Both the position numbers and the translations under genes were made by a program. The notes under the pieces were generated by a model. It did no database searches and was not told the DNA's origin. It was given only the letters and a program-made list of their open reading frames with translations. From a bacterium (GTDB taxonomy: Bacteria > Zhuqueibacterota > QNDG01 > JAFGCO01), in assembly GCA_016932575.1 (NCBI GenBank), contig JAFGCO010000011.1, forward strand, positions 108,321 to 172,320: a stretch of DNA of 64,000 nt. The letters are read 5' to 3'. Shown here in pieces: positions 15,421 through 16,665 of the stretch (position 1 is the stretch's first letter; every line of letters begins with the position of its first letter).

Positions 15421-16665
15421 TCACTCCTTCCCGCAGCATTGTTTAAATTTTTTTCCGCTGCCACAGGGACACGGCTCGTTGCGTCTTATTCTCAATCCGG
15501 AAGCAATCTGCTCTTTGATCTTCTGCTTTTTCTGTTGAATCTGCCAGATCTCGGCCATTTTTCGAAAGACCGGATCCGCATGCTTAAAAAACATTTGGTA
15601 ACTCTGACATAAATAATTTAATCCGGGTGTATTGTTATGGAAAACACGGTTTTTCGGACAGCCGCCCTGACAATGAACTAACCATGGGCATTTTTGACAC
15701 ACATCCGGTAAATTGCTTTTTACCGACCCGAATTTATTTTGTAACGGGGAATTCAGACAATCTGAAAGGCTGTCCTGTATAATATTTCCCAGCCGCCACT
15801 TTGGATGGACAAAAAAATCGCAGGCATAAATATCTCCGTTATGTTCAATGACTGTATAAATGCCGCATTCAGGCAGCAATGTGCATTCCGGCGGACTCAG
15901 GTGAACATAAGTGAAAAACAAGGATTCAAACCACCGGATATAGGTTGATGGTTTTCCATCAATAAAATCATCATGCCATCGATTAAATAATCGGATCAGA
16001 AATCGACCGTATAATTCCGGGGACACAGTAAAAAAAGCCGGCTCGCCCTTACGATTTGGATGGAATTCAACACAGGGAATAAATTGCATGAATTTGAGGC
16101 CGTTTTCCTTATGAAACGTATAAATCTCATCGGGATACCGCACAGAATGATCATTCACCACAATCAGCGCATTGACATCGACATCCGCTTCGAGCAAAAT
16201 ATCCCTGGCCCGGATAACCCGGGACCAGGTCGGCTGTCCGTTACTGAAACGCCGGTAATGATCATGAACGAATTCCGGTCCGTCCAGAGAAAGTCCCACC
16301 AGAATTCCGGTATCACGGAAAAATCGTGCCCAATCCGAATCGATGAGGATACCGTTGGTCTGCAAGCCATTGCCGCAGTGCTGTCCGGACCGCTGGAATT
16401 TCTGCTGAAATTCAACCGCTTTCTTAAAAAAGGAAATACCCATCAGTGTCGGCTCACCGCCCTGCCATCCAAAAGAAATGTTATTTTCTCCCTGGTCCAT
16501 AACTTGACGCACCAGCATGCGCAAAAGCTCGATTGTCATGCGATGTGTTTTTGATTCAGGAAATAAAGCGGATTTTTGCAGATAAAAGCAGTAAGTGCAT
16601 TCCAGATTGCAATCCGGTCCGGCCGGTTTCACAAGAACAGATTGAATGCCTTTTTTCTTTATCAT
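15421..16665 (-). CDS. radical SAM/SPASM protein, anaerobic sulfatase-maturating enzyme-like, with C-terminal SEC-C motif
   Basis: CNLECTYC (CX3CX2C) cluster, QGGEPTL, Cys-rich SPASM region, C-terminal [15 protein letters not shown]. Confidence 0.8.
   Translation of the reverse strand: [414 protein letters not shown]

What the first reader, a model, noticed from the sequence alone, without database searches (positions are those of the whole stretch)
15421..16665. anSME-like radical SAM maturase with a C-terminal SEC-C zinc-binding tail and no sulfatase nearby
The protein has the CX3CX2C cluster and a Cys-rich SPASM region typical of anaerobic sulfatase-maturating enzymes, but ends with [15 protein letters not shown], the SEC-C metal-binding motif known from SecA C-termini. 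Neither neighbour is a sulfatase (flanked by the SGNH/TPR protein and the symporter), so the substrate is unclear.
Basis: partly seen in the sequence, partly recalled or inferred. Interest (0 to 1): 0.4.

Follow-up and report, generated by a model that had tools for sequence, protein, structure and literature searches.

The report
Sulfatase maturase with SecA-type zinc tail
This gene encodes an ordinary anaerobic sulfatase-activating radical SAM enzyme that also carries the small metal-binding tail SecA uses to dock onto ribosomes and SecB; the combination is widespread in uncultured bacteria but has not been studied.

Summary
ORF 15421-16665 (-) encodes a 414-aa protein with Radical_SAM, SPASM and SEC-C domains, all above curated cut-offs. 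It passes the anSME equivalog model TIGR03942 (418 bits against a cut-off of 349). It keeps all 11 Fe-S cysteines and models onto C. perfringens anSME at TM 0.90.

The implied oddity is not supported. A single maturase unlinked to any sulfatase is the norm. Tail-bearing relatives in KSB1 and Planctomycetes sit next to Cys-type sulfatases.

The tail is not rare. It occurs in 117 of the 120 nearest relatives and in 49 of the 150 nearest 50%-identity cluster representatives. It matches SecA peptides at 15-17 of 22 residues. It is more conserved (0.86) than the catalytic core (0.72), and it follows a poorly conserved spacer (0.36) of variable length.

Best reading: a genuine sulfatase maturase, with a tail that tethers it to ribosomes or a SecB-like partner so that it acts on nascent, unfolded sulfatases. 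The tethering step is inferred, not shown. Fusions and adjacency to a cytoplasmic PPIase/SurA-N chaperone module in relatives point the same way. No paper in the searched library describes this combination.

Interest is modest.

The parts
15421..16665 (-). Complete ORF (414 aa plus stop): anaerobic sulfatase-maturating enzyme with a C-terminal SecA-like metal-binding domain
   Evidence: ORF list. TIGR03942 418 bits against cut-off 349. Pfam Radical_SAM, SPASM and SEC-C. 38% identity over residues 9-371 to anSMEcpe 4K36, E 4.5e-80. AF2 model with pLDDT 90.1; best PDB fold match 4K37-4K39, TM 0.90-0.92 normalised to the target.
16156..16620 (-). Radical SAM domain (residues 16-170). It includes the CX3CX2C motif at C19/C23/C26 (nt 16588-16611) and the GGEP SAM-binding motif at residues 69-72
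   Evidence: Pfam PF04055. C19/C23/C26 align with anSMEcpe C15/C19/C22 and are invariant in the 47-sequence alignment A1.
15607..15885 (-). SPASM region (residues 261-353). Aux I ligands are C261, C267, C282 and C336. Aux II ligands are C323, C326, C332 and C353. D283 aligns with anSMEcpe D277
   Evidence: Pairwise mapping to anSMEcpe C255/261/276/330 and C317/320/326/348. That numbering is confirmed in PMC5715301. All these residues are invariant in A1. Pfam SPASM and TIGR04085 also match.
15484..15561 (-). Spacer (residues 369-394): Lys/Gln-rich and poorly conserved, predicted to extend the last SPASM helix
   Evidence: Mean majority-residue fraction is 0.36, against 0.72 for the core. The distance from the last SPASM Cys to the first tail Cys ranges from 35 to 119 residues, median 49, over 150 proteins. 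AF2 predicts a helix at 353-388.
15427..15483 (-). SecA-like metal-binding domain / SEC-C knuckle (residues 395-413, [19 protein letters not shown]). Presumed metal ligands are C399, C401, C410 and C411, with the conserved S403
   Evidence: PF02810 39.8 bits. Identity is 17/22 to the H. influenzae SecA peptide crystallised with SecB (1OZB), 15/22 to E. coli SecA (1SX0) and 16/22 to YchJ-C. Mean conservation is 0.86, higher than the catalytic core.
16777..18807 (-). Context only: upstream membrane-anchored GDSL/SGNH hydrolase with TPR repeats, same strand, 111-bp gap
   Evidence: Pfam. The same arrangement occurs in the 63%-identical relative's locus L020. It is not conserved in other lineages.
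11920..15153 (-). Context only: downstream SSF symporter (13306-15153) and GH130 glycoside phosphorylase (11920-13107), same strand
   Evidence: Pfam. The order maturase-SSF-GH130-OmpA is conserved in L003 and L020. In KSB1 locus L001, GH130 directly follows the maturase.

Best explanation
The gene encodes a bona fide anaerobic sulfatase-maturating enzyme. Its radical SAM cluster cleaves SAM to a 5'-deoxyadenosyl radical. That radical abstracts a C-beta hydrogen from the Cys (or Ser) of the C/S-x-P/A-x-R motif of a still-unfolded sulfatase. The electron leaves through two auxiliary [4Fe-4S] clusters, giving formylglycine. This chemistry is established for the family; here it is inferred from homology. 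The enzyme probably serves sulfatases encoded elsewhere in the genome. The extra C-terminal module is a SecA-type metal-binding knuckle on a variable spacer. It most likely works as a tether that docks the maturase onto ribosomes, or onto SecB or an equivalent partner where one exists. That would let the enzyme meet sulfatase chains co-translationally, before they fold or are exported. The docking step is inferred by analogy with SecA and AscA/YecA and was not shown here.
For: Enzyme identity. TIGR03942 scores above its curated cut-off, while all RiPP-maturase models score far below theirs. The protein aligns end to end with anSMEcpe at 38% identity, with all 11 cluster cysteines and the D277 equivalent conserved and invariant across the clade. 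The AF2 model has pLDDT 90 and matches 4K37-4K39 at TM 0.90-0.92. Tail-bearing relatives lie directly next to Cys-type sulfatases in KSB1 (L001/L002, which share GH130/CBM9 synteny with the window) and in Planctomycetes (L026, two sulfatases). A related tail-less protein, P0251, is fused to a sulfatase fragment.

Tail as a tether. The knuckle is 15-17/22 identical to SecA peptides, including the one crystallised on SecB. Non-ligand residues are nearly invariant over 166 tails: R 0.92, N 0.96, G-S-G 0.96-1.0, K 0.99, Y/F 0.97, K 0.98. The knuckle (0.86) is more conserved than the catalytic core (0.72), while the spacer is poorly conserved (0.36) and variable in length. That is the layout of SecA's flexible linker plus metal-binding domain (MBD). 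The tail is kept in 117 of 120 close relatives and 49 of 150 diverse cluster representatives.

Literature. The SecA MBD binds SecB and ribosomes. An almost identical MBD makes AscA/YecA bind both in an MBD-dependent way. Many methionine aminopeptidases, which act on ribosomes, carry the same MBD. The authors propose that MBDs are a portable toolkit (10.1101/613315; 10.1101/2020.07.21.215244). Formylglycine is described as being introduced co-translationally by anSME (10.1101/2020.11.20.392076).

Independent hint. Relatives are fused in frame to, or directly preceded by, a signal-less SurA-N/parvulin PPIase chaperone-like module.
Against: No binding data exist for any anSME tail; the tether role is analogy only. 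The sulfatases adjacent to tail-bearing maturases carry twin-arginine-type signals (SRRQFI in L001, TRRQFL in L026). That fits ribosome docking but not a specifically Sec/SecB-coupled route. Whether these phyla have SecB could not be tested. The tail is dispensable in evolution: it is absent from a 58%-identical Spirochaetota protein (L006), from P0084 and P0115, and from the characterised enzymes, and it is patchy on a core tree. SEC-C motifs can do other things; in YchJ the C-terminal motif cysteines were reported to form a ROS-responsive disulfide switch (PMC13377102). No sulfatase is visible in this window, so the client is not identified for this organism.
Confidence: 0.6

Rival explanations
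1. The tail is a redox or metal sensor rather than a docking module. Its four cysteines bind Zn/Fe when reduced and form disulfides, or lose the metal, under oxidative or metal stress. This would switch off or oligomerise an oxygen-labile radical SAM enzyme.
For: In YchJ the C-terminal SEC-C-type cysteines (Cys138/140/149/150) were reported to mediate ROS-induced disulfide dimerisation (PMC13377102). SecA-like MBDs bind iron in vivo and were suggested to respond to environmental stress (10.1101/613315). anSMEs are oxygen-sensitive Fe-S enzymes.
Against: The non-cysteine surface residues (R-N, K-K-Y/F-K) are as conserved as the ligands. That argues for a conserved binding partner rather than thiol chemistry alone. 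The variable-length spacer fits a tether better than an allosteric switch. Sensing and docking are not mutually exclusive.
Confidence: 0.15
2. The tail is a structural or autoinhibitory appendage with no external partner. It could be an extra metal site that stabilises the C-terminal helix, or one that folds back onto the peptide-binding cleft.
For: In SecA the linker plus MBD autoinhibits substrate binding until a partner binds (10.1101/613315). AF2 models the spacer as a confident continuous helix (353-388) rather than a disordered linker. The tail has been lost repeatedly without loss of the enzyme.
Against: The tail is extremely similar in sequence to MBDs with proven partners. The knuckle is more conserved than the enzyme core, although characterised anSMEs work without it (anSMEcpe has no tail).
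Confidence: 0.12
3. The enzyme does not mature sulfatases in this organism. It would instead modify another protein or a ribosomal peptide, as a RiPP-type SPASM maturase, which would explain the lack of a neighbouring sulfatase.
For: No sulfatase lies in the 64-kb window. SPASM maturases such as DynA give secondary hits (198 bits). The conserved neighbours in this lineage are a GDSL/TPR protein and a transporter.
Against: DynA, DarE, DarW and all other peptide-maturase models score far below their cut-offs (198 against 450, 145 against 650, and so on), while TIGR03942 passes. No Cys-rich or otherwise plausible small ORF lies in the 111-bp and 267-bp flanking intergenic regions. Tail-bearing relatives sit beside sulfatases. 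Unlinked anSMEs are normal.
Confidence: 0.06

Closest known systems
Clostridium perfringens anSME (anSMEcpe; PDB 4K36-4K39)
   Same: The radical SAM plus SPASM core is collinear over query residues 9-371 at about 38% identity. All three [4Fe-4S] ligand sets and the D277 equivalent are present. The predicted fold matches at TM 0.90-0.92.
   Different: anSMEcpe ends at about residue 370 with no spacer and no metal-binding knuckle. The window protein adds about 45 residues: spacer 369-394 and MBD 395-413.
Bacteroides-type anSME and Klebsiella AtsB-type maturases (NCBIfam NF010308 and NF010321; the organism attribution of these two models is from my own knowledge)
   Same: Same family. A single maturase unlinked to its many sulfatases is documented for B. 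thetaiotaomicron.
   Different: The window protein scores below the cut-offs of these narrower equivalogs (334 against 484, 302 against 441), so it belongs to another anSME subclade. The matches to those models end at query residues 387 and 368, before the SEC-C segment.
SecA C-terminal metal-binding domain (E. coli 1SX0/1TM6; H. influenzae 1OZB in complex with SecB)
   Same: It has the CxCxSx6C[C/H] motif at the extreme C-terminus, after a poorly conserved spacer. Identity is 15-17 of 22 residues, including the basic and aromatic non-ligand residues.
   Different: It is attached to a radical SAM enzyme rather than a translocation ATPase. The last ligand is Cys (the CC variant) instead of His. 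Tyr is replaced by Phe in this protein; across the clade Tyr occurs in 67% and Phe in 30% of tails.
AscA/YecA (UPF0149 chaperone plus SecA-like MBD) and MBD-bearing methionine aminopeptidases
   Same: A functional domain that acts on nascent or unfolded polypeptides is joined to a terminal SecA-like MBD. For AscA the MBD is required for binding SecB and 70S ribosomes. MetAPs with an MBD are cited as ribosome-associated precedents.
   Different: The catalytic or chaperone domain is unrelated. No experiment exists for the anSME version.

Membership tests
Anaerobic sulfatase-maturating enzyme (anSME; TIGR03942) | Whole-protein score above the curated equivalog cut-off | tested here: met
   418.1 bits against cut-off 349.45, covering model positions 2-362 of 363.
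Anaerobic sulfatase-maturating enzyme (anSME; TIGR03942) | CX3CX2C radical SAM cluster motif and GGE SAM-binding motif | tested here: met
   C19/C23/C26 align with anSMEcpe C15/C19/C22. G69-G70-E71-P72 are invariant in the clade.
Anaerobic sulfatase-maturating enzyme (anSME; TIGR03942) | Eight cysteines fully ligating two auxiliary [4Fe-4S] clusters (SPASM) | tested here: met
   C261/267/282/336 and C323/326/332/353 align with anSMEcpe Aux I and Aux II ligands (numbering from PMC5715301). This is sequence-level evidence only; cluster content was not measured.
Anaerobic sulfatase-maturating enzyme (anSME; TIGR03942) | Proposed catalytic base Asp next to the third Aux I cysteine (D277 in anSMEcpe; the role is recalled from the 2013 structure paper and was not re-read here) | tested here: met
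   D283 aligns with D277 and is invariant in 47 sequences.
Anaerobic sulfatase-maturating enzyme (anSME; TIGR03942) | anSME fold | tested here: met
   The AF2 model (pLDDT 90.1, pTM 0.88) matches 4K37-4K39 best, at E about 3e-36 and TM 0.90-0.92 normalised to the target.
Anaerobic sulfatase-maturating enzyme (anSME; TIGR03942) | Genomic or functional link to formylglycine-type sulfatases | tested here: inconclusive
   There is none in the 64-kb window. Adjacent Cys-type sulfatases occur in tail-bearing relatives L001/L002 and L026. The rest of this genome is unavailable.
Anaerobic sulfatase-maturating enzyme (anSME; TIGR03942) | Conversion of Cys/Ser to formylglycine in vitro or in vivo | not testable with these tools
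   This needs biochemistry.
SecA-like metal-binding domain (Pfam SEC-C, PF02810) | HMM score above the gathering threshold | tested here: met
   39.8 bits against 20.4, E 4e-10, covering model positions 1-19 of 19.
SecA-like metal-binding domain (Pfam SEC-C, PF02810) | CxCxSx6C[C/H] ligand motif with the conserved Ser, at the extreme terminus | tested here: met
   C399-P-C401-G-S403-x6-C410-C411, three residues from the C-terminus. The motif definition is taken from 10.1101/2020.07.21.215244.
SecA-like metal-binding domain (Pfam SEC-C, PF02810) | Binds one Zn or Fe ion | not testable with these tools
   This needs metal analysis.
SecA-like metal-binding domain (Pfam SEC-C, PF02810) | Binds SecB and/or ribosomes | not testable with these tools
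   Only sequence similarity to binding-competent MBDs is available.
RiPP-type radical SAM/SPASM peptide maturases (DynA, DarE/DarW, GrrM, XyeB and others) | Score above the family cut-off | tested here: not met
   DynA 198 against 450, DarW 153 against 650, DarE 145 against 650, GrrM 142 against 310; all others are lower.
RiPP-type radical SAM/SPASM peptide maturases (DynA, DarE/DarW, GrrM, XyeB and others) | Adjacent short precursor-peptide gene | tested here: not met
   ORFs of at least 20 aa in the flanking intergenic regions (15154-15420 and 16666-16776) are few, not Cys-rich, and carry no recognisable motif.

The most novel reading that the evidence does not exclude
Tail-bearing anSMEs, together with the cytoplasmic SurA-N/parvulin PPIase module that is fused or adjacent to them in some lineages, form a ribosome-associated machine that installs formylglycine co-translationally. 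This would be the first radical SAM enzyme shown to be recruited to the ribosome or the SecB targeting network by a SecA-type MBD. It would also be a concrete case of the proposed 'MBD toolkit'.
Probability: 0.3. Interest if true: 0.65.

Novelty: new variant of a known kind. Interest (0 to 1): 0.33.

Why it matters
Formylglycine has to be made in the cytoplasm on an unfolded sulfatase chain, before folding or export. How anaerobes with dozens to hundreds of sulfatases and a single maturase manage this timing is not understood. A SecA-type docking tail, found on a third of the nearest anSME cluster representatives, suggests a simple and directly testable answer: the maturase is brought to the ribosome or to the pre-export chaperone. 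If true, this bears on heterologous production of active sulfatases and on degradation of sulfated glycans in sediments and guts. It would also give a clean functional example for the many uncharacterised MBD-bearing proteins. If false, the gene is just a standard anSME with a decorative zinc knuckle.

Tried and rejected
(1) The genome-contig scan did not contain the source genome and returned only 16 loci. The organism's sulfatase complement therefore could not be counted. The nearest named relatives are candidate division KSB1 MAGs at 62% identity.

(2) Four literature searches combined SEC-C, SecA-MBD or SecB with anSME or sulfatase maturation, or asked about pre-export timing. All returned nothing. 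The search for AtsB with signal peptide gave only an irrelevant paper. Absence from this library does not prove the combination is undescribed.

(3) The RiPP alternative was rejected. No plausible precursor ORF is present, and all peptide-maturase HMMs score below their cut-offs.

(4) Rfam found nothing in the whole window. The promoter and terminator scan of 11800-20900 was uninformative: promoter-like sites were no more frequent than in shuffles, and there was no convincing terminator between the maturase and its neighbours. Operon structure is left open.

(5) The NJ tree of core sequences is star-like. The 31 inferred gains and losses of the tail cannot separate one old gain with many losses from repeated gains.

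(6) A strictly Sec- or SecB-coupled version of the tether idea was down-weighted, because the sulfatases next to tail-bearing maturases carry twin-arginine-type signals.

Full report
**Observation**

- Pfam finds Radical_SAM at residues 16-170, SPASM at 270-327 and SEC-C at 395-413. SEC-C scores 39.8 bits against a gathering score of 20.4 (E 4e-10).
- NCBIfam's equivalog model for anaerobic sulfatase maturase, TIGR03942, scores 418 bits against a cut-off of 349.
- Every peptide-maturase model (DynA, DarE/W, GrrM, XyeB, SCIFF and others) falls far below its cut-off.
- The flanking genes are a GDSL/SGNH+TPR protein (16777-18807, -) and an SSF symporter (13306-15153, -), as described.
- No sulfatase exists in the 64 kb. 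PROSITE signatures on all ORFs of at least 100 aa, Pfam on 16 of the larger ORFs, and phmmer with five sulfatase seeds all found none.

**The catalytic core**

- The protein aligns end to end (residues 9-371) with the crystallised C. perfringens anSME at about 38% identity (E 4.5e-80).
- The radical SAM cysteines are C19/C23/C26. The Aux I ligands are C261/C267/C282/C336 and the Aux II ligands are C323/C326/C332/C353.
- These all align with their anSMEcpe counterparts. The anSMEcpe numbering was checked in PMC5715301. All are invariant in a 47-sequence alignment of relatives.
- D283 aligns with anSMEcpe D277. Its role as catalytic base is from my memory of the 2013 structure paper.
- An AlphaFold2 model is confident (pLDDT 90.1, pTM 0.88). 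Its best PDB matches are 4K37-4K39, with TM 0.90-0.92 normalised to the target.

By sequence, motifs and fold this is an anSME.

**Is the missing sulfatase odd?**

It is not.

- B. thetaiotaomicron has a single anSME for 28 dispersed sulfatases (10.1101/2020.11.20.392076).
- Kiritimatiellales strains with about 500 sulfatase genes have one anSME (PMC6388578).
- Among nine tail-bearing lineages with flanks here, two have adjacent sulfatases. KSB1 (L001/L002) has one, divergently transcribed. A Planctomycetes MAG (L026) has two, directly downstream.
- All three of those sulfatases are Cys-type: CAPTR, CSASR and CAPSR.
- Tail-less anSMEs show a similar rate, about 2 of 8 lineages.
- L001 shares GH130 directly downstream and CBM9 upstream with the window.
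- The 63-67% relatives L020 and L003 are fully syntenic with the window: response regulators, CBM9/T9SS, GDSL/TPR, maturase, SSF, GH130, OmpA.

The maturase therefore sits in a conserved glycan-utilisation neighbourhood. That neighbourhood contains a sulfatase in one sister lineage and not in this one.

**The tail**

- The last 22 residues ([22 protein letters not shown]) match the H. influenzae SecA peptide crystallised on SecB (1OZB) at 17/22, E. coli SecA (1SX0) at 15/22 and YchJ-C at 16/22.
- The motif CxCxSx6C[C/H] lies 1-14 residues from the C-terminus in 117 of the 120 closest database relatives. Sources name these as KSB1, Actinobacteria, Aminicenantes, Planctomycetes, Calditrichaeota and Omnitrophota MAGs, annotated 'anaerobic sulfatase maturase'.
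- It also occurs in 49 of the 150 best 50%-identity cluster representatives, down to about 35% identity.
- It is absent from Pirellulales, Clostridia and Polyangiaceae anSMEs, from anSMEcpe, and from a 58%-identical Spirochaetota protein.
- On a poorly resolved core tree its distribution is patchy.
- Across 47 aligned relatives the knuckle is more conserved (0.86) than the catalytic core (0.72). The spacer is poorly conserved (0.36).
- The spacer varies in length: 35-119 residues between the last SPASM Cys and the first tail Cys.
- Non-ligand residues (R, N, G-S-G, K, Y/F, K) are 92-100% conserved.
- AF2 models the spacer as a continuation of the last helix (353-388) that carries the knuckle.

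**Mechanism proposed**

The core chemistry is that established for anSMEs. A SAM-derived radical abstracts hydrogen from Cys or Ser in C/S-x-P/A-x-R of an unfolded sulfatase, and the electron leaves through Aux I and Aux II. Here this is inferred by homology.

For the tail, the literature shows three things:

- The SecA MBD binds SecB and ribosomes.
- A near-identical MBD confers both interactions on the chaperone AscA/YecA.
- Many methionine aminopeptidases carry the same MBD.

The authors suggest that MBDs are a portable toolkit with at least 18 attached functions (10.1101/613315; 10.1101/2020.07.21.215244). Neither paper mentions radical SAM enzymes or sulfatase maturases. No paper in the searchable library links them.

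An enzyme that must act on unfolded, mostly exported clients is a logical recipient. I therefore propose that the tail tethers the maturase to ribosomes or a SecB-like partner. This is inference.

Supporting hints:

- The tail has a conservation pattern typical of a binding surface.
- Formylglycine is described as a co-translational modification.
- Relatives link the maturase to a signal-less SurA-N/parvulin PPIase chaperone-like module. It is fused in one uninterrupted ORF in P0101 (L024/L025), P0123 and P0124. A SurA-N-only version occurs in P0109 by Pfam, and P0077 and P0122 have homologous-looking N-terminal extensions by eye. In Calditrichaeota L027 it is a separate gene that ends at the maturase start codon.

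Counter-evidence:

- The neighbouring sulfatases carry twin-arginine-type signals (SRRQFI, TRRQFL). This favours ribosome docking over a Sec/SecB-specific route.
- The tail is evolutionarily dispensable.
- In YchJ, SEC-C-type cysteines act as a ROS-responsive disulfide switch (PMC13377102), so a redox-sensor role is a live rival.

**Comparison and novelty**

The protein is a member of the anSME family; all testable defining features were met. It also carries a genuine PF02810 MBD. It differs from every characterised anSME (C. perfringens, Bacteroides-type, Klebsiella AtsB-type) by the spacer and knuckle.

The architecture is abundant in sequence databases and is auto-annotated without comment. 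I found no description of it or of its function. I therefore rate it a new, uncharacterised variant of a known kind, with modest interest: the enzyme and its unlinked position are ordinary, and only the tail, with the parallel chaperone fusions, offers a testable new idea.

**Confidence**

| Claim | Confidence |
|---|---|
| The protein is an anSME | about 0.9 |
| The tail is a folded SecA-type metal knuckle | about 0.9 |
| The tail docks to ribosomes or SecB-like partners | about 0.5-0.55 |
| Overall, for the combined statement | 0.6 |

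Noticed in passing
L024 10001-12172; L025 3148-5319; L027 9171-10001; proteins P0101, P0123, P0124, P0109, P0077, P0122: A signal-less SurA-N/parvulin PPIase chaperone-like module is fused in frame to the N-terminus of tail-bearing or related anSMEs in several distinct clusters. In a Calditrichaeota MAG it is a separate 276-aa gene that ends at the maturase start codon and is 31-36% identical to the fused versions. This recurrent fusion and adjacency looks like a functional link.
   Followed up: partly
L019 8717-10087: A 456-aa Halanaerobiales protein has a J-domain-like N-terminus (YYRILG...KRSEYD, judged by eye and not HMM-tested) and a C-terminal SecA-like MBD ([20 protein letters not shown]). 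It is another chaperone-type protein carrying the tail.
   Followed up: no
protein P0251 (563 aa): An N-terminal sulfatase fragment (PF00884, residues 58-196) is fused to a tail-less anSME core. This is either a true fusion or a merged gene call, and it again links the family to sulfatases.
   Followed up: no
L001 8078-9835 (-); L026 11499-12986 and 13178-14569: The sulfatases adjacent to tail-bearing maturases are Cys-type. Two of the three carry twin-arginine-type signals (SRRQFI...LLNC, lipoprotein-like; TRRQFL). The third has no obvious signal peptide.
   Followed up: partly
window 11831-11866: A perfect 16-bp-stem palindrome flanked by A and T runs (ATAAAAAAGGCTGTCC-ATAA-GGACAGCCTTTTTTAT) lies between the convergent OmpA-family gene (+) and the GH130 gene (-). 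It is a likely bidirectional terminator closing the minus-strand cluster that contains the maturase.
   Followed up: no
window 46619-49834 (+): A 1071-aa protein has a twin-arginine-like N-terminus (SRRSFFNKSAAG), a DUF362 domain and a T9SS C-terminal sorting domain. That is an unusual combination of export signals.
   Followed up: no
window 43435-46197 (-): A 920-aa protein has a TMEM260-like protein O-mannosyltransferase domain plus C-terminal TPR repeats. Judging only by Pfam hits to homologous genes in L022, nearby ORFs may be glycosyltransferases; they were not tested here.
   Followed up: no
window 21339-26261 (-): A run of response-regulator genes and a large sensor kinase lies upstream of the CBM9/GDSL/maturase cluster. 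The same arrangement (GAF-HisKA kinase, sigma-54 activator, response regulators) is conserved in L020. Only the L020 versions were domain-annotated.
   Followed up: no
window 26918-27463 (-): A 181-aa ORF with a signal-peptide-like N-terminus is weakly similar (E 1e-9) to the PPIase that accompanies the maturase in L027. It is probably an ordinary exported parvulin and is not linked to the maturase here.
   Followed up: no
window 62094-62722 (-): Two small overlapping ORFs (108 aa and 101 aa, 4-bp overlap) look like a toxin-antitoxin pair, judged by arrangement only.
   Followed up: no
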